Sequence record: OL656110.1
Origin: Escherichia phage vB_EcoM-RPN242
DNA length: 64,000 bases
Strand: one strand, 5' to 3'
The translations under genes and the position numbers were made by a program. The notes beneath the pieces were generated by a model. It did not search any database. It was not told the origin of the DNA and saw only the letters and a program-made list of their open reading frames with translations. Shown here piece after piece: positions 7,316 to 62,702 of this stretch (its first letter is position 1; every line of letters starts with the position of its first letter).

Positions 7316-7357
7316 ACTGGCTACACACAGCAATACTTTGATTTGAGAAACTACATC

Positions 7358-7846
7358 ATGATGCTGTTAATGAGCGTTCCACAGAACAAGATGACCCCTG
7401 CAACAGAGGGTAAGAATCACTTCAACATCTACAGCCGGAGCCAGACGGAACTCGGGCGCTTCCTCTCGCATTTTACCCATCATCCAATGACTACCCATGA
7501 ACATGGTGTGTTTAACTCCATGGAGGGGTACTGGTATTGGCTGAAGTATAGGGATGACAACCTGCGCCTGCTCGACGGTTATGAGGCCAAGCAATATGGA
7601 CAGGGATTGGCGGCTTCCCGCGTCATTGTCCTGGACCCGTCTACCGAAGAATTCAAGCGCGATATCCTATTTGCAACTAGTATGAAACTCCAGACAATGC
7701 CTGAACGTCTGAAGATCAGATTGGCGTACAGTCGCCTACCCCTGATCCATGCATATGTTCAGAACGGGAAATACAGTTTTCAAAACTCTATGGACTATAT
7801 CATTGCCCACATTAATCGTCTCCGCATACAAGGAACTTTGAAATGA
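7358..7846 (+). CDS. NADAR-like (YbiA/DUF1768-like) domain protein, candidate ADP-ribosyl-nucleobase hydrolase
   Basis: motif series IYSRS, LGRFLSHF, FNSMEGYWYWLKY, YEAKQYGQG, SMKLQTMPERLKIRL matches my recollection of NADAR signature blocks (FYS.S / DFSNF / SEHYFQA.K); ATG 7358. Confidence 0.5.
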   Translation: MMLLMSVPQNKMTPATEGKNHFNIYSRSQTELGRFLSHFTHHPMTTHEHGVFNSMEGYWYWLKYRDDNLRLLDGYEAKQYGQGLAASRVIVLDPSTEEFKRDILFATSMKLQTMPERLKIRLAYSRLPLIHAYVQNGKYSFQNSMDYIIAHINRLRIQGTLK

Positions 7847-15416: not shown

Positions 15417-15758
15417 ATGAAACGTTCGGTTGTTGTAAATGACATCACGAGATTGATAAACCTTGTCAAAGATGTGTTTCCACAACAGGTGGATGTCGAG
15501 TACGTGGGGAAGAACGGGAAGTGTTACCAGGTCGCCCTGTTGTTGAAGCACGTGTATCCCCAAGCAGAGATCCATTACAGTCAGACCGAAGGTCATGTGT
15601 ATACTCTGATTGATGGGCATTACTACGACATCGAAGGCATCCACTTCAGTGTCCCACCGGACACGTGTTTGCTCGAACACAACAGAGGTCACAAACCACA
15701 TCGCTGGCATAAAGGGTTTGTGAACGTACCGATTTTAGAATGGTTGAGGAGACCATAA
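15417..15758 (+). CDS. hypothetical protein
   Basis: ATG 15417 with SD GGGAGAGG; His-rich C-terminal half. Confidence 0.45.
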
Positions 15759-29140: not shown

Positions 29141-29221
29141 TTCCAGCCTCATGATGTAGTTGTAACTCTTCAATACAGATTAAATATTAGGCGATTATTT
29201 CTTGAAAGTAAAGTTATTGAA

Positions 29222-37081: not shown

Positions 37082-37151
37082 AATAAAAACCCTTTCGTTA
37101 TTAAGACCGTATCCGCGGCATATTGTTGTTCTGACTGTGTAGTGAGAACAT

Positions 37152-37179
37152 AATATACTGCATTTTCATAGATGTAAAC
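37152..37179 (-). promoter_or_regulatory. candidate sigma70-like promoter (GTTTAC, 16-nt spacer, TATATT)
   Basis: minus-strand -35 at 37174-37179 and -10 at 37152-37157 in a 176-bp intergenic region. Confidence 0.2.
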
Positions 37180-47677: not shown

Positions 47678-48139
47678 CTACTCCGCCAGGGTGATCACAA
47701 CCATATTTAAGACTGTGTCGATAGCTCGGCCTGTTTCCTCTTCATGGAGGGTTTCGGCGCGGAGGTGCACGTCGGTGATGAAATTGTCGATGTGCATTGA
47801 AGTCAGATACGGGCGGTGTTGACTGACCGGGCGGTTGACCAGAACATAATTGCGCAATGTGTTGAAGTCCTGATGAGAGCACCCCGTTGTATCGATACGA
47901 AGGAAGCGTTCGTTGTGGCTTGTCTTCAGTTCAGTTACCTTGCCGAGGTAGACCAGAGGTCCATTGCGACCGATACGGAACATAACATCAACAACAGACT
48001 TGAAGATTTCGCGTTCAATTAGTGCGGTGGGTGACCAGCAGATCTCTTCTTTGTCATCGGCGTACAGGGTGTCGATCACCAGAGGGAGTTGAATGTAACC
48101 GAAGTTGTGCATTGGGTTGGTGAGTACTTTGTTTGTCAT
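47678..48139 (-). CDS. hypothetical protein
   Basis: 153-aa ORF; 16-nt leader GGAACTATATCATGAC shared with ORF 60916-61251. Confidence 0.45.
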   Translation of the reverse strand: MTNKVLTNPMHNFGYIQLPLVIDTLYADDKEEICWSPTALIEREIFKSVVDVMFRIGRNGPLVYLGKVTELKTSHNERFLRIDTTGCSHQDFNTLRNYVLVNRPVSQHRPYLTSMHIDNFITDVHLRAETLHEEETGRAIDTVLNMVVITLAE

Positions 48140-48150
48140 GATATAGTTCC
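48135..48150 (-). repeat. 16-nt start-region motif GGAACTATATCATGAC (copy 1)
   Basis: identical 16-mer at 61247-61262; related leaders at 55194 and 7358. Confidence 0.5.
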
Positions 48151-48210
48151 CGCTTTCAATTTGTGGCGAATGCCAATGAATTACTGGGAAGTATAAGCGC
48201 AGGGATTATA

Positions 48211-48237
48211 GAAGTAAAGCCCCTCAATGAGGGGCTT
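48211..48237 (-). terminator. rho-independent terminator after nrdH
   Basis: 9-bp stem AAGCCCCTC/GAGGGGCTT with AAT loop, 8 nt after nrdH stop. Confidence 0.55.
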
Positions 48238-49583: not shown

Positions 49584-49877
49584 TTATGCCTTGCCTTCGT
49601 GGAGTTTGATCTGTTCAGTGGTGATGTAATTCTTGATGTTAACAACAAAATCCTGGCGTTTGTCTGCAGGTAATTTGCTGAGGTCTAGAAGGATGTGAGT
49701 ACGGTTCACAGTATCCATTGGATCCGTGTAATTCAACGGGATAGCCGTGACTTCGCCGCCGTTGTGCCAAGCAGTGGCCACCTTCACGTTGCGGAGAACA
49801 TTCTCCGCTTCCATTTTGCTGTTGTGTTCGAGCAAGATACCTGGTTGGCCAGGGACTAACAATAACGTTTGGAACAT
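49584..49877 (-). CDS. hypothetical protein between nrdA and nrdB
   Basis: 97-aa ORF; ATG 49877 with SD AGGAG. Confidence 0.4.
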   Translation of the reverse strand: MFQTLLLVPGQPGILLEHNSKMEAENVLRNVKVATAWHNGGEVTAIPLNYTDPMDTVNRTHILLDLSKLPADKRQDFVVNIKNYITTEQIKLHEGKA

Positions 49878-49946
49878 ATAGAACTCCTGATGAATAGGGG
49901 TGATCTCTCACCCCTGATGATATAACGGTAGTAGGTTTAGACCAAT

Positions 49947-52229
49947 TTATACAACACAGCTGTCGCACTGAGTTTCCTCAGCCTGTTTCAGCTCTTCGTC
50001 TTCCTTGGCGTCCTTGTTTGTGTTGTAATACAGAGTCTTGCCACCCCACATATAGAACGACAGGATATCCTGCATCATCTTGGCGCGAGGGATCTTGCTG
50101 TCAGGGTACTTCTCTGGGTCATACCACGTGTTGGTACTGATGGACTGGTCAACCCAGCGCTGGATGACAGCAGCGGTCTTCAGGTACTCAATACAGTCCA
50201 GGTCCCACTTGAGGTCATACATCGGTCCAAGGGTCTCAACGTCCGGGACGACCTGCTTATAAGTGCCGTCCTTGCTACCCTTGATGCTCACCAAGCCCTT
50301 CGGTGGCTCAATGCCGTTCGTTGCGTTGAGGACCTGTGAGGAGCTTTCGGTAGGGGCTACTGCCAGCAGGGTGGCGTTTCGGATACCATAGGTCTTCAGA
50401 TTATCCTTCAACCCATCCCAATCCAGCCCGTATGCCATCCCTTCTGGCTTCTTGCCATTTGGTAGGATATCAAGTGGAAGCGGCTGAAGGTCGGCGGTGA
50501 CCTGCCCATTATTGTGGATGGTTCCGCGTTTACACGCCCCGAACTTCATAGCCAGACGGTTGGACGCCTTGACCAGATAGAAGTGCAGGTGTGCCATCCA
50601 CGCATCCAGCATTTCAAGACCAGCTGGTGAGCCATAGCCCGTGAAGTTCTTGGCCAAGAAGTGAGCCACATTCACGATACCAACACCCAGAGGACGATAG
50701 TCTTCAACAGCTTTACGAGCCTGAATCGCTGGATAGTCCTGATATTCCAACAGCATGTCCAGCGCAGACACCAACACGAACGCCACGTCTTCCATTTCCG
50801 TAGGATCTTCGAACGCTGTCAGGTTGAAGGAAGCCAGGGTGCACAGAGCCACGCGCCCGTTTTCATCGTTGTACTGCTCAAACTCACGGGTCGGCAGGGC
50901 GATTTCTAAACAAAGATTTGAAGAATAAATCGTGTCTAGGTTGAATGGACTGTACTCATTCATGTGATCGACAAACGCGATGTAGATGCGGCCTGTGTCT
51001 GAACGCTGGTCTAACAGCATCTGGAACACCTCTTCTGCCTGCAACTTTTTAGCACGAACCAAACCAGCATCGGCGGCCTTGATCATGTTCTCATACAGAG
51101 TACGGAACTTGTCAACGTCAGCGAAGTATGCTTCATACATTTCGCGGTTGTCTTTCGGGTCGAACAGATACAGAGGCTGCTTGGCAACCAGGCGCTCAAA
51201 CATCACGCGGTTGATCTGAATGCCATAGTCGATACGGCGTTCGCGGTTTTCTTCAGTACCACGGTTGTTCTTCAGAACAACAACGTCATCGAACTGGTAA
51301 TGCCACAGAGGGATGTACGCTGTTGCTGCACCACCACGAATGCCGCCCTGAGAGCAAGATTTGAGTGCCCCAGTGAGATACTTGATGAATGGGATCAGGC
51401 CTGTGTGAACCATCTCTCCGCCGCGAATAGGACTACCAATCCCACGGATTGCCCCGACATCGAAGCCGATACCCGCACGTTTGGACACATAGTCAACGAT
51501 GGTCTTGGCTGTTGCGTTGATAGAGTTCAGGGTGTCATCAGTCTTGATTAACACACAGGAACTGAACTGACGGGTAGGAGTACGAACACCTGCCATAATC
51601 GGGGTGGGAAGACTGAACTTGCCTGTGCTGGCATATTCATAGAACTTTTTCACCATCTCCAGGCGGCTGGCTTTGTCCCAGTTAGAGAACAACGCCATGG
51701 CGATGCCCATGTACATGACCTGAGGGGTTTCGTAGAAGATCTTGCTGTCTTTCTTGGAACGGTCGCGCAACAGGTACTTCTCAGTCAGCTGACCCATGGC
51801 CGCCCACGTGAAGTTCTTATCGCGTTTGTGATTGATGACATCGTTCAGCTCGTTGAACTCTTCGGTCGTGTAGAGATCAAGGAACTCACGATCATACACG
51901 CGCTGTTTGATGTTCTTGACGAAGATGTCCAGCAGGTGAGGCGGCTTGTACTGACCGTAGACAGCCTTGCGCAGATCATACGACTTCAGACGAGCAGCCA
52001 CATACTGGTAATTGGGTTTGTCTACAGAGATCAGTGAAGCCGCAGCCTGGATGAGGATATCCTGAATGCGATCTGTTCTCATGTTGTCGGTGAACTGAAT
52101 CTTCGATGCAGCGATCACCTCTGACATTGACACACCAGACAGGCCATCACAGGCGCGGTCTACGACTGCGTGTAGTTTCTCAATATCAAATGGGACAGAA
52201 GATCCGTCACGTTTTATAACGTTAATCAT
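49947..52229 (-). CDS. nrdA: ribonucleotide reductase large subunit (class Ia)
   Basis: 760 aa; N-terminal ATP-cone (VIKRDGSSVPFDIEKL), catalytic-domain Cys motifs; SD GAGGA. Confidence 0.9.
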   Translation of the reverse strand: MINVIKRDGSSVPFDIEKLHAVVDRACDGLSGVSMSEVIAASKIQFTDNMRTDRIQDILIQAAASLISVDKPNYQYVAARLKSYDLRKAVYGQYKPPHLLDIFVKNIKQRVYDREFLDLYTTEEFNELNDVINHKRDKNFTWAAMGQLTEKYLLRDRSKKDSKIFYETPQVMYMGIAMALFSNWDKASRLEMVKKFYEYASTGKFSLPTPIMAGVRTPTRQFSSCVLIKTDDTLNSINATAKTIVDYVSKRAGIGFDVGAIRGIGSPIRGGEMVHTGLIPFIKYLTGALKSCSQGGIRGGAATAYIPLWHYQFDDVVVLKNNRGTEENRERRIDYGIQINRVMFERLVAKQPLYLFDPKDNREMYEAYFADVDKFRTLYENMIKAADAGLVRAKKLQAEEVFQMLLDQRSDTGRIYIAFVDHMNEYSPFNLDTIYSSNLCLEIALPTREFEQYNDENGRVALCTLASFNLTAFEDPTEMEDVAFVLVSALDMLLEYQDYPAIQARKAVEDYRPLGVGIVNVAHFLAKNFTGYGSPAGLEMLDAWMAHLHFYLVKASNRLAMKFGACKRGTIHNNGQVTADLQPLPLDILPNGKKPEGMAYGLDWDGLKDNLKTYGIRNATLLAVAPTESSSQVLNATNGIEPPKGLVSIKGSKDGTYKQVVPDVETLGPMYDLKWDLDCIEYLKTAAVIQRWVDQSISTNTWYDPEKYPDSKIPRAKMMQDILSFYMWGGKTLYYNTNKDAKEDEELKQAEETQCDSCVV

Positions 52230-53257: not shown

Positions 53258-54052
53258 TTAACTGAAACTCTTGTATGCTGCTGCGAGCTTCGTGTCGTAC
53301 TGGTTCTTGGCATACGCCGGACCATTATAGCGCCGCGCAAACTCAGCCCAGTTCTTGTCCTTCAGAGCCTGCCAGAGCTTGGCGTCAGCCTTGATGAACT
53401 TCACGAATGCCATCAAATGAGCACGTTCTCCTGTCAGGAAGTCGTTGAACATCTCCTTGGCGTTGGCATATCCACAGACCTGGCAGTTGAATCCCATGAT
53501 CTGGAAGAGACCGTAAGAGGCGCTCTCGTACGCACAATCCTCATCAATGTTGATGGCCGCATGAAGTCGATCCAACTCCGCGTCGCCGCCCGTGTACCCG
53601 CCTGCAGAAGGGTTGACCAACGTCGGGTACATATGTCCCATGGCATTCGCCCGAGCCTGTCCGAACTTCGCCATCAGCTTTTTATACATGATGTGGCGCT
53701 CAAATAATGTCTTGATCTTACCTGACTTGGTGAAGCCCGTGCCGCGCGACTCAACCTGATTCACCGCCTTGACAGAGGCAAGGTCAACACCCAGATCGTT
53801 AGCAGCATCAATCAGGTCTGACTCAGTTAGATGATCCTGATGGGCGTCTCCGGCGTTGCGAATAGCATAGGAGGTCTTTGGACCCACGATACCATCAATG
53901 ACAAGCCCCGCACCCGCCTGAACAGTCTTGACGGCGTTCTCTGTTGCCTTGCCAAAGATACCATCAGCGACGAGGGTGAAGCCGATTTTGTTGAGGCTAT
54001 CCTGAAGTGCCTTCACTTCAGTACCACGGTTGCCAAATTTTAGAATGGCCAT
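53258..54052 (-). CDS. endolysin (N-terminal peptidoglycan-binding domain plus C-terminal muramidase-like domain)
   Basis: ATG 54052 with SD GGAGG; PG-binding-like LKFGNRGTEVKALQDSLNKIGF...DGIFGKATENAVKTVQ; C-terminal VESRGTGF...YGLFQIMG glycosidase-like motifs. Confidence 0.7.
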   Translation of the reverse strand: MAILKFGNRGTEVKALQDSLNKIGFTLVADGIFGKATENAVKTVQAGAGLVIDGIVGPKTSYAIRNAGDAHQDHLTESDLIDAANDLGVDLASVKAVNQVESRGTGFTKSGKIKTLFERHIMYKKLMAKFGQARANAMGHMYPTLVNPSAGGYTGGDAELDRLHAAINIDEDCAYESASYGLFQIMGFNCQVCGYANAKEMFNDFLTGERAHLMAFVKFIKADAKLWQALKDKNWAEFARRYNGPAYAKNQYDTKLAAAYKSFS

Positions 54053-54121
54053 AAGAAAATACCTCCACAATGAATGCAGAGGTATTTAAAGTGAAAGTGA
54101 ACTACTTGAGGGAGTGGTGTA

Positions 54122-54457
54122 CTACATTTCTTTGAGCAGCGTTGCCATAAATTCCACCTTCTGGCGCAAACTGATATACGCTTCCGGAGCCGATTTGCCA
54201 CGCCCTTCTAATGAATCCCACCCGATGATTTTCGCCGACCAAAGTTTCTCATACTGATGGTAGGTCATCAAAAACGACTTACGACACATTTTGATGTCTG
54301 CGCCTTCTATGTTTCTGAGTATTTCCCAGTCCACCTGGCCCAAAGAAATTTTGAGTTCATACAGAGCCAATCTTGACAATTCCAAGTTATTCTTTGGAGT
54401 GCCTTCTGGTTTACCTGGCTCTGTTATGGCCAAAGCCTCTTGTTTTGTTAGTTTCAT
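54122..54457 (-). CDS. hypothetical protein
   Basis: ATG 54457 (aa 68 of track ORF) overlapping upstream small ORF stop. Confidence 0.4.
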   Translation of the reverse strand: MKLTKQEALAITEPGKPEGTPKNNLELSRLALYELKISLGQVDWEILRNIEGADIKMCRKSFLMTYHQYEKLWSAKIIGWDSLEGRGKSAPEAYISLRQKVEFMATLLKEM

Positions 54458-54642
54458 CTTGCTATCACCACTGGCATAACTTCGCTGAAGGACGTACGAA
54501 CTTCGGCGTCGTACCCGTATTTTTCCAGGACTGCCAACATCGCCTGCTCGAGTTCCTCTTGGAACTGAGGGAAGACTTTGTTCGGAATGCGGTCGGCAAC
54601 CCAGAGAGCGCCTGCTGAGGCTTGGATGACTGCGCGGGGCAT
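54454..54642 (-). CDS. hypothetical small protein
   Basis: 62-aa ORF with SD GGAGA. Confidence 0.4.
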   Translation of the reverse strand: MPRAVIQASAGALWVADRIPNKVFPQFQEELEQAMLAVLEKYGYDAEVRTSFSEVMPVVIAR

Positions 54643-54705
54643 GGTAATCTCCTACCAAAAATCTGAATGGGAGGGGAGGTAACTCCCCTTTGTTACACGT
54701 CGGGA

Positions 54706-55194
54706 TTAGGCCAGTTTGCTCACCAGAGCTTCAACTGCGTCGGCGCTCAGTTTACCCATTTTGACGTACTGAGCTTTTGCTTCACCACCAGCCGCTTTCA
54801 CGATGTCGGTGTTGTCGTACCCCTTCTTAGGGAATACCATCACAGAGAAGGAACCGTTGTTCAGCGGGTTCAGCTGGATGCGACCTTTACCGACTACGAT
54901 GGTGCCGTAAGTTTCGGTGTTTGCTTCGACAATGTGGATGTCGTGACCCAGGTTTTTCAGCATACCAACTTTGTCGGCAGTCTTAGCAACCACAGCTTTG
55001 TCAACCACAACCTGCTCTACCAGGGTGAAGCCGTTAGTCGATTTCACTTTACCGTTCAGCAGGTTCATGAAGGAAGTTTTGCCACCAGTGAAGCCAGCCG
55101 CCTGAGCGATGCGGAACATTTCAACTTTAGCAACTTCGGTGTTCAGTTCGAAAGAGATGGTGCCGTTGGTGATCAGAGTTTTGGTAGTAGCCAT
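54706..55194 (-). CDS. hypothetical protein (K/A/V/T-rich)
   Basis: ATG 55194 with SD GAGGA; leader contains GGCGG/CCGCC hairpin; antisense 220-aa ORF judged spurious. Confidence 0.5.
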   Translation of the reverse strand: MATTKTLITNGTISFELNTEVAKVEMFRIAQAAGFTGGKTSFMNLLNGKVKSTNGFTLVEQVVVDKAVVAKTADKVGMLKNLGHDIHIVEANTETYGTIVVGKGRIQLNPLNNGSFSVMVFPKKGYDNTDIVKAAGGEAKAQYVKMGKLSADAVEALVSKLA

Positions 55195-55333
55195 GATGTA
55201 ATTCCTCATAATGTAGTTGGTTCATTTCACTTTTCATTCGGCGGTGTGTTGCCGCCCTATGTGAACTATAATAGTGCATCATTATTGAAGAGTAAAGTCT
55301 TTTTCAATAATTTTTTAAAATATTTTTGAAGTA

Positions 55334-57319: not shown

Positions 57320-57673
57320 TTACGACAGCTGCTTCAGTTTGTAGATCGTCTGATAACACAGTGTCTTGATATCGTCAAGAGTGCTCTGAAGGTGGGAGTC
57401 ACACTGCTTGTAGATGCCATCGACGTCTATCACCACACTATTAATATAGGAGATAGGGTCTGGGTTGTACAATTTGATATTCTCGAATGATGGAACATAC
57501 TGACCACCCGCACCGATGTATGCTTCGGTAAACGTGTCCAGCAAGTCCTCTAGACCCCCGTAGAACTCCCCGAGTGCCTTGTGCTTGGCATAGGACGTTG
57601 TAACGAAGTGTAAGGCATGAGAGTGGGCTATAGCAAGCAGTCCACGGTTGATGAAAATACTCGCATTGACCAT
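57320..57673 (-). CDS. hypothetical protein
   Basis: ATG 57673 with SD GAGGAA (track start 57727 is GTG). Confidence 0.45.
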   Translation of the reverse strand: MVNASIFINRGLLAIAHSHALHFVTTSYAKHKALGEFYGGLEDLLDTFTEAYIGAGGQYVPSFENIKLYNPDPISYINSVVIDVDGIYKQCDSHLQSTLDDIKTLCYQTIYKLKQLS

Positions 57674-57685
57674 GATTTGTTTCCT

Positions 57686-57719
57686 CAGAAAAAGAAATCC
57701 CCCTGTATTTAGGGGGATT
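57686..57719 (-). terminator. rho-independent terminator
   Basis: 9-bp stem AATCCCCCT/AGGGGGATT, 6-nt loop, followed on minus strand by TTCTTTTTCTG. Confidence 0.55.
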
Positions 57720-58119: not shown

Positions 58120-60840
58120 TCAGATCTTAATCTGCATGTTGCCACCCAGGGACTGCTCGTACTCGCTGTATGCGCCTTCCCCGTAGTCTCGTGCCCACTG
58201 GTCAGACTGCTGGGCGCTATCCAGAGTCATCAGGTTTGGTTCAGTCGGGTTGTAACCCTTGGACTTCGCATCCCGGTACAGAGTCTGCAGGTACTGGTTG
58301 GCGCGGTCAATCTGAGATTTGAACTCGCGATATGCCCCTTCAGTTGTGTTGCGGCGGAAGGTGATATCCCAGTCCACGTTCAGAGTCTGACCATCACGGC
58401 TTGCATAGATCTGCCAATCCAGGTCGCGGCCTTTTGGTGCGTTGTCGCGGATGGAGTCGGCGTATGCCGCAAGGTCGGCACCAGTCTTCTTCGCAGTACT
58501 CGACTCTTTCTCCAGTCTCTCGGTTTCTTTGGACAGGATACCCAACATAAATTCATTAGTGCGGCGATCCGCCATGTCGTACCCGCGCCAAAGGACTGAA
58601 CCGTTGTTGTCAACAGAAATGTCGTCCAAAAATACTTGTTTCGGATTATACGACGTGCTTTTCAGAGTTTGTATATTCCGAGATATCATTTCCATTTTAG
58701 AAGAAATTTCATCGATCACGGCCTGAACAATATCTTTCTTCAAAGTAAGTTCATATGTCTTCGGATTGTTCAGGGTACGACCTTTATTGGATACAATAGG
58801 CGTGATCGCCACTTTGCCTTTGTCGTAGTAATAGGTCACATTCGTGGTCAATACAGCACCATCATACTTCCCAGTTTTCGGGAAATTGACGCCAGACCAA
58901 GTGATGGACATACCGTTGACAGTCTCACCAAACACCATGGCGTTGCTTGGTATATTCAGGGTTCCAGAGTTGACCAGATCAGCGCCTTGGGCATTCAGGT
59001 CGATAGAACCATAGATGGCCCCGGTAATACGATCTTTCAGCATCAGGGTCTTGTCGCCCTTCTCTGGGATGATTTCCAGCGGGTGCTTGCCACGCGGAGG
59101 TTCTTTGATGAGTTCCAGTAGAGCAGTTTTCCCTGGCTTCACACGATTCAGGACAGCGTCGGACACTGTCAGAGTCCAGTTTGCGGTTTCCACATAACCC
59201 CAGCCCCGAGAACGGCGAATGGCTTTGATAGGATATGGAGCGCTTGTTGGCACTGCGCTAATTTCCCATTTGCCAGTGTACTGGGTCTTGGCAACCTCAA
59301 AGATGGACGCAATTACCGCATTGGCGACGTCACGGGCGCTACCTTTGGCCACGTTCTCCTCTTCAGCAATTTCGCTGAAAACTGAGTATTGAACGAAACC
59401 AGCGAGGACGTTTGTGAAGTTGACAACGATAACCAACCCGCCTGCTGTCGTGTAACGACCAGCGCCCACACGACGGATGTTTTCACCAGGAAGAATAGAA
59501 GTGTCCAGCCCAACGTTGGTATCAATGATACCCAGAACACGAGCGATGAAACCACTGTTACGTAATTGATCAACACTGGTTGCACCCTCGGTCGAATCCG
59601 ATGCGGATTTAGACACTTTGTTCAACTTGATAGAGACAAGGGTTTCCCCGTTGACACCGATGATATCCCATTCAGTACCCTGCTCGTTCGAGATGCGAGC
59701 AGTCTTGCGCTTTGAATTGATGGCACCTTCGTAACGCCCGTTCTTGACTACAACAGAGGCTGTGGCAGCATCAGTAGCACTTGCTGCATTTGAAAAGTCT
59801 GGGTCAGAAATACTGATGTCGACGTCACCGTTTTGAGAACGCATGCGAACGCCGTTTTTGAATCGTTCCACGTTTACTTCTCGAGCACCAAGTCGTTTGG
59901 CATCAATAACAGCAGTTCCAGAACCGATAATGTTGGCTGGGTTATTTCTGTCTGAACTGTTTTGAGAACCTTTCCAAAATTTTGTGGACGCTGTGGTGAA
60001 ATCATTCAGGATACTGATAGGGACTTGTGGTAATTTCAACTGACGAGCAATGAAATCAGCACTTTGCCCACGCACAGGTTTCTCATTCATGTATGCGCCA
60101 ACATACACACCCGGCTCATTGTAGTGGGGAGCGATATTTGCCGTGTTCATGCGGCCTCTCTCCTTACCAGCCCATAACAACATGGGCTGATCTCCGTTTG
60201 AAGTTAATTTCCATCCGTTGGAATTATCAACAGAAGATGACACACCCACATCCGGAGTATTGTTCTGAACCGGAACGTCACCGACCTTGTCTGGATCATC
60301 CCAGGTGATACCCTGCATCTTCGGACCGTCGAATACCTGAGCCGGATCTTTACCCTTGCGGACCAGCCACACATAACCACGGTCAGGGACAGGCGCGTAG
60401 GTCAGGTCCATGACATTCAGTTTCTGTTTCAGGCCGGACTGGCGGATGATCTTAGGAATCAGGGTCATACCGCGATCCAGCGCTTTCTTCGAGAAGTTGA
60501 CAGCAAAGCCATCGATGGTTTTGCCCAGAGGAGTCGCCATGAATTGTTTGGTCGCTTCGATCATGGAAGCGATAACGCGCATTGGGTTCTTGAAGCGAGC
60601 GATGGCGTCAGGATAGACGGAGCCGCGCTTCTGGCCGATGAAAACCTGACGAACACTCTTACCCAGCCCCTGAGGGGTATAGAACTGAATACGGTATTCC
60701 TTTTCATCTTCGTCGACGAAGGTGAAGAACACATCGCCTGCGTTCTTCTTACCCATGGTCAGCTCATACGGAGCGGAGTTGAACGCTTCGTCCAACTGAT
60801 CTCTTTCCTGCATGAACTGGAGGAAACTTAGCTTTGACAT
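58120..60840 (-). CDS. large hypothetical protein (906 aa)
   Basis: long ORF with SD AGGAGA; no recognisable catalytic motif. Confidence 0.6.
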   Translation of the reverse strand: MSKLSFLQFMQERDQLDEAFNSAPYELTMGKKNAGDVFFTFVDEDEKEYRIQFYTPQGLGKSVRQVFIGQKRGSVYPDAIARFKNPMRVIASMIEATKQFMATPLGKTIDGFAVNFSKKALDRGMTLIPKIIRQSGLKQKLNVMDLTYAPVPDRGYVWLVRKGKDPAQVFDGPKMQGITWDDPDKVGDVPVQNNTPDVGVSSSVDNSNGWKLTSNGDQPMLLWAGKERGRMNTANIAPHYNEPGVYVGAYMNEKPVRGQSADFIARQLKLPQVPISILNDFTTASTKFWKGSQNSSDRNNPANIIGSGTAVIDAKRLGAREVNVERFKNGVRMRSQNGDVDISISDPDFSNAASATDAATASVVVKNGRYEGAINSKRKTARISNEQGTEWDIIGVNGETLVSIKLNKVSKSASDSTEGATSVDQLRNSGFIARVLGIIDTNVGLDTSILPGENIRRVGAGRYTTAGGLVIVVNFTNVLAGFVQYSVFSEIAEEENVAKGSARDVANAVIASIFEVAKTQYTGKWEISAVPTSAPYPIKAIRRSRGWGYVETANWTLTVSDAVLNRVKPGKTALLELIKEPPRGKHPLEIIPEKGDKTLMLKDRITGAIYGSIDLNAQGADLVNSGTLNIPSNAMVFGETVNGMSITWSGVNFPKTGKYDGAVLTTNVTYYYDKGKVAITPIVSNKGRTLNNPKTYELTLKKDIVQAVIDEISSKMEMISRNIQTLKSTSYNPKQVFLDDISVDNNGSVLWRGYDMADRRTNEFMLGILSKETERLEKESSTAKKTGADLAAYADSIRDNAPKGRDLDWQIYASRDGQTLNVDWDITFRRNTTEGAYREFKSQIDRANQYLQTLYRDAKSKGYNPTEPNLMTLDSAQQSDQWARDYGEGAYSEYEQSLGGNMQIKI

Positions 60841-60915: not shown

Positions 60916-61251
60916 TTATTTTTGAACTTGGGCTACAGACATCGCCCAGAGCGGGAGGGTGTGGGGGTCCAGGGCTTCCAGTAGATATTCGACGCGCTCT
61001 GACATGATACCTTCAGGGAAGTTTACTTCTTCTGGTTCGTTGTTGGCCGTCCAACCCAAGGTCAGTCCTTCAGCGTGATGGATGATATAAACGAAGTCGC
61101 CCGATTCGTAGTCCTTTTCCATCAGGGAGAAGAAATCTTCCATTTCTTCGTCGGAGAAGTAGTAGATGCGAGGTACGGAGCCGTCAGCAAAGTGCTCAGC
61201 ACCCTGGAAGGCAAACATGTCATCGGCGGTGAAGTTCTTGAGTTGTGTCAT
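60916..61251 (-). CDS. hypothetical acidic protein
   Basis: ATG 61251 preceded by the 16-nt motif GGAACTATATCATGAC. Confidence 0.45.
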   Translation of the reverse strand: MTQLKNFTADDMFAFQGAEHFADGSVPRIYYFSDEEMEDFFSLMEKDYESGDFVYIIHHAEGLTLGWTANNEPEEVNFPEGIMSERVEYLLEALDPHTLPLWAMSVAQVQK

Positions 61252-61262
61252 GATATAGTTCC
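61247..61262 (-). repeat. 16-nt start-region motif GGAACTATATCATGAC (copy 2)
   Basis: identical to 48135-48150. Confidence 0.5.
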
Positions 61263-61326
61263 TGCTATTCAAGTTGGTGTCGTACTGCTTATGGAATGAA
61301 GTATAGGGAAGGATATTGAAGAAGTA

Positions 61327-61349
61327 AAGGGGCGAAAGCCCCTTTTATT
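61327..61349. terminator. GNRA-loop hairpin terminator
   Basis: 7-bp stem AAGGGGC/GCCCCTT with GAAA loop; TTTTATT on plus strand, TTTACTTC on minus. Confidence 0.5.
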
Positions 61350-61357
61350 GAATTATT

Positions 61358-61996
61358 TTACGGCGTCGGATTCACAACCGGAATGTGGGATCGAATACCT
61401 GCGATGATGTCCTTCAGCTGAGGCTTCCATCCATCCACCAAACGGGGTAGAGCGATAGCACCAGGCTGAACTAAAATGATGTCGCTGCCTGTGATATTGT
61501 GCTGAGGGAACTGGGCAAGGTACTGCTCCATGGTGACACCCTCATCAATCAGAACCGCACCGACGTCAGACGATGCGTAGGTTGCACCCAGACCGTCAAC
61601 ACCCCACGCCAAAATACCCCAGTCAGGGATGTTGGCTTCAGATGTGATAGTGAATCCAAACACGGTGTTCAGTGATGTAAAGGAGTAGACATCGTGGGTG
61701 ATGTCATACACCAGATACCCCTTGGTCAGCATATCGGCAAAGATCGCGTCCGTATCGCCAGCAGTCGGAGTCGGTACAGTAAACAACAGCTCGCCATCAG
61801 GAGGAGCAGGGTATGTGCTGAGGGCATAGAGGCACCATGCGTCAATACACTTCTTGATAAATGCCTCCGGTGCGACATAATCAGCAAGGCGAACCGTACC
61901 TGAGTACTCGGATACGATGATGCCTTCCTTCGCACCCTGTAGAGCAATGAAGACCAAGATATGTTCATATCCGGCCTGAGATGGAGTGATGTTCAT
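61358..61996 (-). CDS. hypothetical protein
   Basis: ATG 61996 (aa 33 of track ORF) overlapping upstream stop by 1 nt. Confidence 0.45.
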   Translation of the reverse strand: MNITPSQAGYEHILVFIALQGAKEGIIVSEYSGTVRLADYVAPEAFIKKCIDAWCLYALSTYPAPPDGELLFTVPTPTAGDTDAIFADMLTKGYLVYDITHDVYSFTSLNTVFGFTITSEANIPDWGILAWGVDGLGATYASSDVGAVLIDEGVTMEQYLAQFPQHNITGSDIILVQPGAIALPRLVDGWKPQLKDIIAGIRSHIPVVNPTP

Positions 61997-62667: not shown

Positions 62668-62702
62668 TAAAAGATAAAGGGCACGTGGTATTTAGTGCCC
62701 TT
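62668..62702 (-). terminator. rho-independent terminator
   Basis: 8-bp stem AAGGGCAC/GTGCCCTT with 10-nt loop, followed on minus strand by TTATCTTTT. Confidence 0.55.

What the first reader, a model, noticed from the sequence alone, without database searches (positions are those of the whole stretch)
48135..48150. Recurrent start-codon leader motif GRAAYTAYATC-ATG on four genes
An identical 16-mer GGAACTATATCATGAC precedes ORFs 47678-48139 and 60916-61251. Closely related leaders precede ORF 54706-55194 (GAGGAATTACATCATGG) and the NADAR-like ORF 7358 (GAGAAACTACATCATGATG). An exact 16-mer repeat in 64 kb is unlikely by chance. It may be a binding site for a translational regulator (RegA-like) or a shared initiation context.
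Basis: seen in the sequence. Interest (0 to 1): 0.5.

Follow-up and report, generated by a model that had tools for sequence, protein, structure and literature searches.

The report
Shared start-site module of early cassettes
The repeated 16-mer is the core of a ~25-base ribosome-start block that ends a repeated early-promoter cassette in Ackermannviridae phages, much like the "PeSL" cassettes of T4-type phages, and small accessory genes are gained and lost exactly at this block.

Summary
GGAACTATATCATGAC (in fact a 17-mer) sits at the ATG of genes 47678-48139 and 60916-61251, with close variants at 55194 and 7358. A better null rejects chance. In the 97%-identical complete genome PQ306799.1, 11 of 193 annotated starts match at least 9 of 11 motif positions, against 1.2 expected from start-context statistics. 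Three match exactly, against 0.007 expected.

The motif is the core of an extended block, TTGAA-N5-GGAACTAYATC-ATG-AC, held in a fixed register to the ATG. It forms the 3' end of a repeated cassette: A/T tract, GC hairpin, T4-early-type promoter (TTTACT-N16-17-TATACT), and an unstructured leader of about 50 nt. The block is conserved in four Ackermannviridae genera and follows the cassette, not the gene. Orphan genes are inserted or deleted precisely between two copies.

The best reading is the translation-initiation end of PeSL-like early regulatory cassettes, doubling as a recombination junction. A genuine RegA homolog exists outside the window, but orthologs of the T4 RegA targets checked lack the motif. 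No RegB homolog was found. A sequence-specific trans-acting factor is not excluded. Interest is moderate.

The parts
48137..48159 (-). TIR block TTGAAAGCGGGAACTATATCATG of gene 48139 (exact motif copy 1)
   Evidence: Same block in Limestonevirus and Taipeivirus orthologs.
48190..48218 (-). T4-early-type sigma70-like promoter TTTACT-N17-TATACT. The -10 ends about 50 nt before the ATG.
   Evidence: Consensus match only; activity inferred.
48219..48235 (-). GC hairpin GCCCCTCATTGAGGGGC abutting the -35 (terminator/attenuator of the upstream thioredoxin/glutaredoxin-nrd operon)
47678..48139 (-). Gene g48139, 153 aa, phrog_3902, unknown function
61249..61272 (-). TIR block TTGAATAGCAGGAACTATATCATG of gene 61251 (exact motif copy 2). 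Junction of a 335-bp gene indel relative to PQ306799.1.
61300..61328 (-). Promoter TTTACTTCTTCAATATCCTTCCCTATACT
   Evidence: 80-95% conserved cassette in 276 phage records.
61329..61359 (-). A/T-rich tract plus hairpin GGGGCTTTCGCCCC directly upstream of the -35
60916..61251 (-). Gene g61251, 111 aa, phrog_9866, unknown function
55192..55207 (-). GAGGAATTACATCATG: peripheral family member (9/11, no TTGAA). The spacer is not conserved in Taipeivirus orthologs.
55240..55296 (-). Promoter TTTACT-N17-TATTAT (55268-55296) and leader hairpin GGGCGGCAACACACCGCC (55240-55257) of gene 55194
54706..55194 (-). Gene g55194, 162 aa, phrog_3764, unknown function
7337..7360 (+). TTTGATTTGAGAAACTACATCATG: promoter-less copy of the block in a 42-nt intergenic spacer. 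Conserved in orthologs down to 66% protein identity.
7358..7846 (+). Gene g7358, 162 aa, phrog_652 (annotated 'virion structural protein' in PQ306799.1). NADAR label not supported.
29150..29212 (-). Fifth cassette: promoter TTTACT-N17-TAATAT (29184-29212) plus TTGAAGAGTTACAACTACATCATG (29150-29173). The spacer part of the motif is present without GGA. This is an alternative start of the RecT-like gene.
37150..37178 (-). Same promoter type (TTTACA-N17-TATTAT) followed by a non-motif TIR. Shows that promoter and block are separable.

Best explanation
The 16-mer is the core of a translation-initiation block of about 25 nt: TTGAA at -21..-17, G-14, A-12, GGAACTAYATC at -11..-1, ATG, then A+4 and C+5. 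The block forms the 3' end of a repeated early-gene regulatory cassette in Ackermannviridae phages. The cassette reads: A/T-rich tract, GC hairpin, T4-early-type sigma70 promoter (TTTACT-N16-17-TATACT), an unstructured leader of about 50 nt, then the block. This is the architecture described for PeSL (promoter-early stem-loop) cassettes of T4-type phages, T4/PST subtype.

Likely mechanism:
- Host sigma70 RNA polymerase fires these promoters immediately after infection.
- The block offers a GGA/AAGGA Shine-Dalgarno 8 nt from the ATG, in an A/U-rich, structure-free context with an A-rich second codon. The first gene of each early transcript is therefore translated efficiently.
- The same block recurs at many gene starts, so it also supplies short homology at which accessory ORFan genes are deleted, inserted or swapped. 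This in turn keeps the copies alike.

Shown here: recurrence beyond start-context statistics, fixed register, linkage to the promoter, lack of structure, conservation in four genera, independence from gene identity, and motif-flanked indels.

Inferred: promoter activity and early timing, translation strength, and the recombination mechanism.
For: Enrichment:
- 11 of 193 starts match at least 9/11, against 1.24 expected under a column-shuffle null. There are 3 exact copies, against 0.007 expected.
- In PQ306799.1, 16 of 22 genome-wide matches at up to 2 mismatches lie at annotated starts, and two more lie at unannotated or alternative starts (29750, 77830) behind TTTACT promoters.

Extended block:
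- In 24 TIRs (translation initiation regions) from 4 genera, T-6, A-5 and A-3 are invariant, and TTGAA sits at a fixed offset.
- TGA[AT] occurs at -24..-13 in 9/11 family genes against 21/182 others (Fisher p=7e-7).

Promoter linkage:
- Only 5 TTTACT-N16-18-TAnnnT sites exist in the window, and 4 precede motif-type starts.
- Genome-wide, 6 intergenic promoters are followed by a >=9/11 block about 50 nt after the -10, 2 by partial blocks, and 2 by none.
- The two exact copies align over about 130 nt including hairpin and promoter.

Structure:
- Leaders fold no better than shuffles.
- Motif TIRs have a mean MFE of -5.7 against -12.6 kcal/mol for other genes (p=7e-6).
- No Rfam family matches.

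Conservation and portability:
- The cassette is 80-95% identical in 276 records of Agtre-, Limestone-, Kutter- and Taipeivirus, with 2-3 copies detectable each.
- The Taipeivirus ortholog of g48139 has a different, shorter leader but the identical block.
- Kuttervirus orthologs are operon-internal, with an ordinary TAGGAGCATAAT-ATG and no motif.
- At one hypervariable locus the same hairpin+TTTGAA+block module is fused to four different genes in four genera: an ADP-ribosyltransferase, denV, a 378-nt family and a 288-nt family.

Indel junctions:
- A 91-aa ORFan lies between two block copies in PQ306799.1 and is absent from the window, with the crossover inside GGAACTA.
- That ORFan is present in 141 records, and in the five records cross-checked lies directly behind this cassette. 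It is polymorphic within each of three genera.
- A different 77-aa ORFan is flanked by two block copies in front of the g48139 ortholog in another contig.

PeSL definition, including SD and ATG at the 3' end, the TTTACW-N17-TAYWAT subtype, and crossovers between -10 and ATG: PMC2839356 and PMC4122927.
Against: - There are no expression data for this family. Promoter activity, early timing and translation efficiency rest on consensus matches and folding predictions only (one search found no transcriptomics).
- Nucleotide-for-nucleotide conservation of the spacer ACTAYATC and of TTGAA, in a fixed register, is more than an SD plus open spacer needs. It hints at sequence-specific recognition that this model does not explain.
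- About half of the copies have no promoter (7358, H1 61998, 97048, 73254, 76619, 77175). The block is therefore not strictly a cassette component.
- Only 1 of 8 indels between the window and PQ306799.1 is block-bounded. Two other whole-gene insertions sit at ordinary TIRs.
- The homology available for crossover is only 7-17 nt.
- The 91-aa ORFan was always found at the same locus, so translocation between cassettes was not demonstrated.
Confidence: 0.62

Rival explanations
1. The block is an RNA operator for a phage-encoded post-transcriptional regulator that switches off a class of early mRNAs. The regulator could be the family's RegA homolog (a translational repressor competing with the ribosome at the AUG), or an unidentified nuclease acting like T4 RegB/S1 on an 11-nt GGA-initiated site. 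This can coexist with the cassette model.
For: - A genuine RegA homolog is encoded next to the clamp-loader genes (PF01818, E=2e-34).
- T4 RegA sites overlap the AUG and are unstructured (PMC3014915), as is the block.
- T4 RegB strong sites are 11-nt, start with GGA, lie in early-gene TIRs and need to be unpaired. This is the same length, position and class-specificity as GGAACTAYATC.
- The spacer and TTGAA are conserved beyond what an SD requires, in a fixed register.
- rIIB, a classical T4 RegA target, has 8/11.
Against: - Orthologs of T4 RegA targets gp45, gp44, gp62 and regA itself, plus DNA polymerase, gp32, gp41, gp61, gp59, UvsX/Y, NrdAB, dNMP kinase and thymidylate synthase, score 1-7 of 11.
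- The block does not resemble the T4 RegA SELEX sequence, and only 4 of 11 positions fit GGAGRAYARAA (by inspection).
- No RegB homolog is in the genome (tblastn best E=2.4, phmmer best E=0.3).
- The motif-bearing 153-aa ORFan g48139 is not RegB-like by sequence or fold.
- Kuttervirus orthologs of g48139 lack the block.
Confidence: 0.17
2. The copies are passive relics. One promoter-leader-TIR segment was duplicated or spread by recombination, and the copies are alike only because they are young or homogenised by gene conversion. There is no selected function in the spacer itself.
For: - The two exact copies share about 130 nt of cassette.
- Leaders of three cassettes share CATAAGCAGTACGACAC.
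- Motif-flanked indels show that recombination acts here.
Against: - The block is kept in four genera whose genomes are only about 59-69% identical (PMC3296691), while the N5 linker and leader bodies differ.
- It is kept in promoter-less intergenic spacers of non-homologous genes.
- Relics should decay at the rate of the flanks.
Confidence: 0.12
3. Generic Shine-Dalgarno plus A/T-rich spacer: the similarity is what any set of phage gene starts would give by chance.
For: - Exact 16-mers are not rare in 64 kb (about 2 pairs expected).
- GGA at -11..-9 occurs in 41 of 193 genes and ATC at -3..-1 in 35 of 193.
Against: - The column-shuffle null is exceeded in 0 of 5000 trials.
- Identical 11-mer pairs number 5 against 0.1 expected.
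- There is an additional upstream TTGAA at a fixed offset.
- The motif is linked to a specific promoter.
Confidence: 0.02
4. A DNA-level signal, such as a middle-type promoter (TTGAA as an activator box, TAYATC as the -10) or a target of one of the phage's homing endonucleases.
For: - TTGAA-N10-TAYATC loosely recalls the geometry of MotA box plus -10.
- The family has no known middle-promoter signal (PMC3184105).
- The genome carries several homing endonucleases.
Against: - TAYATC lacks the conserved final T of a -10, and the spacer is shorter than in T4 middle promoters.
- A transcript would start inside the coding sequence and could not express the gene it precedes.
- The block is always in a fixed register with an ATG and on the coding strand, as expected for an mRNA signal.
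- It is not palindromic.
Confidence: 0.04

Closest known systems
PeSL (promoter-early stem-loop) mobile regulatory cassettes of T4-type phages (Arbiol et al. 2010, PMC2839356; Comeau et al. 2014, PMC4122927)
   Same: - Same composite order: A/T-rich tract, stem-loop just upstream of the promoter, sigma70-like promoter, and SD plus ATG at the 3' end.
- The promoter fits the T4/PST subtype TTTACW-N17-TAYWAT (here TTTACT-N16-17-TATACT/TATTAT).
- Several copies per genome, next to ORFans and in hypervariable regions.
- Indels between close relatives have crossovers between the -10 and the ATG.
   Different: - Found in Ackermannviridae, not Straboviridae. No paper in the searched library links the two.
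- Here the most invariant part is the TIR end (about 25 nt, fixed register). It also occurs alone, without promoter or stem-loop.
- Mini-circle formation, promoter activity and terminator activity were shown experimentally for PeSLs but not here.
T4 early promoter regions with consensus promoters and ribosome-binding sites (Liebig & Rueger 1989, cited in PMC3184105; not read here)
   Same: Early transcription units of a T4-related phage share extended promoter consensus (GTTTAC-type -35, A/T-rich upstream) and a class-typical RBS.
   Different: This is a lead from a title and from general knowledge only. I did not compare the T4 early RBS consensus with this block. The six T4 TIRs around regB that I read show no such block.
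T4 RegB/S1 cleavage site GG*AGRAYARAA (Durand et al. 2006, via PMC3014915)
   Same: An 11-nt element starting with GGA, lying in the SD region of early mRNAs, required to be unpaired, and specific to a temporal class.
   Different: - Only 4 of 11 positions agree.
- No RegB homolog is detectable in the genome.
- No cleavage data exist.
T4/RB69 RegA translational operators
   Same: They overlap or abut the AUG and are unstructured. A RegA homolog is present in the family.
   Different: - T4 operators have no clear consensus, and the SELEX sequence aaAAUUGUUAUGUAA is unlike the block.
- Orthologs of the T4 RegA targets checked lack the block.

Membership tests
PeSL cassette (T4-type phages) | sigma70-like early promoter with -35 and -10 boxes at 16-18 nt spacing | tested here: met
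   TTTACT-N17-TATACT at 48190-48218 and 61300-61328, and TTTACT-N17-TATTAT at 55268-55296. Matches the T4/PST subtype TTTACW-N17-TAYWAT. Consensus match only.
PeSL cassette (T4-type phages) | Adjacent stem-loop (terminator/attenuator), placed just upstream of the promoter in the T4/PST type | tested here: met
   GCCCCTCATTGAGGGGC at 48219-48235, and GGGGCTTTCGCCCC within 61329-61359, abutting the -35. Absent upstream of 55296, where a hairpin lies in the leader instead.
PeSL cassette (T4-type phages) | A/T-rich region upstream of the -35 | tested here: met
   AAAATAATTCAATAAAA (g61251) and AAAAATTATTGAAAAAGAC (g55194).
PeSL cassette (T4-type phages) | Shine-Dalgarno and start codon of the downstream gene at the 3' end | tested here: met
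   The finding itself: GGAACTAYATC-ATG about 50 nt after the -10.
PeSL cassette (T4-type phages) | Multiple conserved copies per genome, preferentially next to ORFans or in hyperplastic regions | tested here: met
   About 8 promoter cassettes and 12 blocks in PQ306799.1. Nine of 11 block genes are annotated hypothetical. Copies cluster at 48-63, 73-78 and 95-97 kb.
PeSL cassette (T4-type phages) | Indels or replacements between close relatives bounded by the elements, with crossovers between -10 and ATG | tested here: met
   The 335-bp ORFan indel has its crossover in GGAACTA. A 77-aa ORFan is flanked by two blocks. Four different genes sit behind one module. However, only 1 of 8 window-versus-H1 indels is block-bounded.
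PeSL cassette (T4-type phages) | Formation of excised mini-circles, and demonstrated promoter and terminator activity | not testable with these tools
   Needs inverse PCR on infected cells, reporter assays and TSS mapping.
RegA translational operator | Bound by RegA, with repression of translation of the target | not testable with these tools
   A RegA homolog is present. No binding data exist.
RegA translational operator | Present on the known RegA targets (genes 44, 45, 62, regA, rIIB and others) | tested here: not met
   Orthologs score 1-7 of 11, and only rIIB reaches 8/11. The regulon could differ in this family.
RegB/S1 cleavage site | A RegB endoribonuclease encoded by the phage | tested here: not met
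   T4 RegB against the whole PQ306799.1 genome: tblastn best E=2.4, phmmer best E=0.3. g48139 is not RegB-like.
RegB/S1 cleavage site | Consensus GGAGRAYARAA | tested here: not met
   Only GGA and one further position agree with GGAACTAYATC (by inspection).
Any curated structured RNA family (Rfam 15) | Match at gathering threshold, or a stable conserved fold | tested here: not met
   No Rfam match in the window. Leader z-scores range from -1.3 to +1.3.

The most novel reading that the evidence does not exclude
The invariant, fixed-register block TTGAA-N5-GGAACTAYATC-AUG is a class-specific operator. A phage factor reads it to shut off, or to time, translation of the immediate-early ORFan class. 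That factor could be the divergent RegA homolog or an unrecognised nuclease analogous to RegB. The block would then be the first defined post-transcriptional control signal in Ackermannviridae, and it would have a much sharper consensus than any known RegA operator.
Probability: 0.15. Interest if true: 0.6.

Novelty: new member of a known kind. Interest (0 to 1): 0.38.

Why it matters
[quoted passage not shown] For LIMEstone1, five early promoters were listed without a shared leader or TIR (PMC3296691). The cassette described here gives a concrete, testable set of immediate-early transcription and translation units for a family widely used in Salmonella, E. coli O157, Klebsiella and Dickeya biocontrol.
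- It extends the PeSL idea (regulatory cassettes as the seams of modular gene shuffling) beyond Straboviridae. It also points to the ribosome-start block itself as a seam.
- For annotation, the block corrects or adds gene starts, for example an unannotated ORF in PQ306799.1 and an alternative RecT-like start.
- For engineering, the block marks natural, tolerated insertion points and a portable early expression module.

Tried and rejected
- Paralogy of the four proteins as the cause: rejected. They belong to different PHROG families and have no Pfam hits.
- A structured RNA element: rejected. Leaders fold no better than shuffles and there is no Rfam match.
- A RegB homolog anywhere in the genome: none found.
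- A middle-type promoter reading of TTGAA...TAYATC: rejected on geometry, the missing -10 T, and the fixed register to the ATG.
- Extra complementarity to the 16S rRNA 3' end beyond AAGGA: none seen. This was by eye from the remembered E. coli sequence, not a tool result.
- My first greedy ORF caller mis-picked several genes. I replaced it with the annotated starts of PQ306799.1.
- Transcriptomics for this family: none in the searched library.
- Translocation of the 91-aa ORFan to other cassettes: not seen. In the records cross-checked it sits behind the same cassette.
- Locus L020 did not cover the region I wanted. L038 itself sufficed.

Full report
**Observation**

The window is the first 64 kb, starting at rIIA, of an Agtrevirus-like Ackermannviridae phage. 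It is 97% identical to Salmonella phage vB_CECAV_050, PQ306799.1 (here 'H1'), and 92% identical to Shigella phage Ag3.

GGAACTATATCATGAC occurs exactly at 48135-48150 and 61247-61262 on the minus strand. The degenerate GRAAYTAYATCATG also occurs at 7347-7360 (+) and 55192-55205 (-). All four ATGs are the starts annotated for the orthologs in H1.

Random Markov-1 sequences of this length carry about 2 identical 16-mer pairs, and the window holds five other unrelated pairs. The repeat matters because of where it sits and because it has relatives.

I used the 193 usable annotated starts of the complete H1 genome. Eleven genes match GGAACTATATC at -11..-1 in at least 9 of 11 positions, and three match exactly. 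The third exact 16-mer lies outside the window, at H1 96257.

I then permuted each upstream column independently among genes. This preserves the SD and spacer composition exactly. It gives 1.24 genes with at least 9/11 (maximum 6 in 5000 trials) and 0.007 exact copies. Identical 11-mer pairs number 5 against 0.1 expected. Generic SD-plus-spacer statistics therefore do not explain the motif.

Of 22 genome-wide matches at up to 2 mismatches, 16 are at annotated starts. At least two more are at plausible unannotated or alternative starts.

**The motif is longer than reported**

I aligned 24 such starts from four genera at the ATG. This gives TTGAA at -21..-17, G at -14, A at -12, GGAACTAYATC at -11..-1 (T-6, A-5 and A-3 invariant), ATG, then A+4 and C+5.

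TGA[AT] at -24..-13 is present in 9 of 11 family genes against 21 of 182 others (p=7e-7). The register to the ATG never varies.

**Surroundings**

The two exact copies align over about 130 nt upstream. Each has a GC hairpin that abuts TTTACT-N17-TATACT, and the -10 ends about 50 nt before the ATG.

Only five TTTACT-N16-18-TAnnnT sites exist in the window. Four of them precede motif-type starts: 29152, 48139, 55194 and 61251.

In H1, six intergenic promoters of this type are followed by a >=9/11 block 49-52 nt (74 nt in one case) after the -10. Two are followed by partial blocks and two by other TIRs.

Upstream of the -35 lies an A/T-rich tract, and the -35 region itself is extended (TTTACTTCTTCAATA). 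About half of the blocks have no promoter. They sit in short intergenic spacers, often just after a GGGTATGATYACCC-type hairpin.

**RNA properties**

Predicted leaders fold no better than shuffled controls, with z-scores from -1.3 to +1.3. No Rfam family matches the window.

Over -40..+35, motif genes have much weaker predicted structure than other genes: mean MFE -5.7 against -12.6 kcal/mol (p=7e-6). The -14..+6 segment is also more often unpaired, 0.58 against 0.47 (p=0.003).

The SD is GGA to AAGGA, 8 nt from the ATG. By general knowledge of E. coli initiation, this is near-optimal aligned spacing, and A-rich second codons favour expression. These last two points are inference.

**Conservation and portability**

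The 137-nt cassette of g61251 is found at 80-95% identity in 276 phage records. With one or two oddly named exceptions, these are Ackermannviridae (Agtre-, Limestone-, Kutter- and Taipeivirus), with 2-3 detectable copies each. The 24-nt block pattern hits 26 stretches of IMG/VR, and every one aligns to H1.

Orthologs chosen by protein rather than by motif show that the block belongs to the regulatory context, not to the gene:
- For g48139, Agtre-, Limestone- and Taipeivirus keep promoter and block. The Taipeivirus leader is otherwise different and shorter.
- Nine Kuttervirus orthologs are operon-internal, with an ordinary TAGGAGCATAAT-ATG and no motif.
- For g7358 the promoter-less block is kept down to 66% protein identity.
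- For g55194 the promoter and leader are almost invariant, but the spacer drifts in Taipeivirus. That site is a peripheral member.

**Indel junctions**

Between the window and H1 there are eight indels.
- One is a 335-bp segment holding a complete 91-aa ORFan. In H1 it lies between two block copies (…AGCAGGAACTACACCATGA… and …CGAAGGAACTATATCATGACA…). The window has a single hybrid copy with the crossover inside GGAACTA.
- That ORFan is present in 141 records. In the five records cross-checked it lies directly behind this same cassette (compare the coordinates). It is polymorphic within Agtrevirus (H1 against the window), Kuttervirus (Vi01 against ECML-4) and Taipeivirus (KpS110 against T751). 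This argues for recurrent loss or gain at the repeats.
- Independently, another contig carries a different 77-aa ORFan between the promoter-proximal block and TAA|GGAACTATATC-ATG of the g48139 ortholog.
- In a hypervariable stretch between the acyl-carrier-protein gene and a conserved 450-nt gene, one and the same module precedes four different genes in four genera. The module is the end of the preceding gene, a hairpin, TATTTGAA and the block. The genes are an ADP-ribosyltransferase, denV, a 378-nt family gene and a 288-nt family gene.
- As counter-evidence, two other whole-gene insertions sit at ordinary TIRs without the block.

**Comparison with known systems**

The architecture is the one defined for PeSL cassettes of T4-type phages: an A/T tract, a stem-loop, a sigma70-like promoter, and SD plus ATG at the 3' end. 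Other shared features are multiple copies next to ORFans, crossovers mapped between -10 and ATG, and the T4/PST subtype TTTACW-N17-TAYWAT with the stem-loop just upstream of the promoter (PMC2839356, PMC4122927).

All sequence-level PeSL features are met here. Mini-circle formation and promoter and terminator activity cannot be tested with these tools.

I found no paper linking PeSLs to Ackermannviridae. The CBA120 paper states that early promoters could not be identified informatically. The LIMEstone1 paper lists five T4-like early promoters without further analysis.

**The RegA idea**

A true RegA homolog is encoded beside the clamp-loader genes of H1 (PF01818, E=2e-34), outside the window. 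T4 RegA sites overlap the AUG and are unstructured, as the block is.

Against it:
- Orthologs of T4 RegA targets (gp45, gp44, gp62, regA) and other replication genes match only 1-7 of 11 positions. Only rIIB reaches 8.
- The block is unlike the T4 SELEX consensus.

A trans-acting reader of the block therefore remains possible but unsupported.

**Verdict**

The finding is a real, non-random feature. It is best explained as the translation-initiation end of PeSL-like early regulatory cassettes in an Ackermannviridae phage (confidence about 0.6), and it also serves as a seam for ORFan gain and loss.

One thing remains unexplained. The spacer and the upstream TTGAA are kept nucleotide-for-nucleotide in a fixed register, while linkers and leaders vary. 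This leaves about 0.15-0.2 probability for a sequence-specific regulator.

I class it as a new member of a known kind, of moderate interest.

Noticed in passing
window 49586-49884: A small extra ORF is absent from the 97%-identical PQ306799.1. It is inserted exactly between the SD (AGGA) and AACATG of nrdB. It re-uses the old SD and brings a new one for nrdB.
   Followed up: partly
window 54112-54560 (ORF 54122-54658, minus strand): A 450-bp segment with a 178-aa ORF is absent from PQ306799.1. Function not examined.
   Followed up: no
window 57705-57712 and 62688-62695 (minus strand): CTAAATAC sits in the loop of GC hairpins just upstream of genes starting at 57673 and 62610. It may be a late-promoter-like element. 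There are only two copies in the window, which is not significant alone.
   Followed up: partly
window 29150-29173 (minus strand): The RecT-like gene has a motif-type ATG at 29152 (ACAACTACATC, no GGA). It lies 12 nt upstream of the start annotated in PQ306799.1, which uses the GAGG inside ATGAGGCTG. The true start is uncertain.
   Followed up: partly
L003 (PQ306799.1) around record position 77830, minus strand: There is an unannotated ORF start (GGTACTATATT-ATG) about 50 nt behind a TTTACT-N17-TATTAT promoter, probably a missed small early gene.
   Followed up: partly
L003:36826-37290 (PQ306799.1 86826-87290), outside the window: A genuine RegA-family translational repressor (PF01818, E=2e-34) lies next to the clamp-loader genes. 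The 2011 CBA120 paper reported only RNase H at the translation/RNA level.
   Followed up: partly
[not shown]
   Followed up: partly
window 55240-55296 and loci L067-L086: The g55194 promoter plus leader, with the hairpin GGGCGG…CCGCC at about +5, is almost invariant across genera. It is more conserved than the gene's own TIR spacer.
   Followed up: no
L003 26672-27175 (PQ306799.1 76672-77175): This gene is annotated 'RNA polymerase ADP-ribosylase' and sits in a cassette slot that holds denV or other genes in other genera. The CBA120 paper stated that ViI-like phages lack Alt/ModA homologs. The annotation was not verified.
   Followed up: no
window 51251-51267 / 54016-54032 and 15669-15685 / 49819-49835 (inverted): Other exact 17-mer repeats occur in the window, presumably by chance.
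   Followed up: no
window 58120-60840 vs PQ306799.1 58512-61586: The large 906-aa ORF is about 330 bp shorter than its ortholog. This is an in-frame internal indel with a 9-nt overlap at the junction, suggesting a repeated domain.
   Followed up: no
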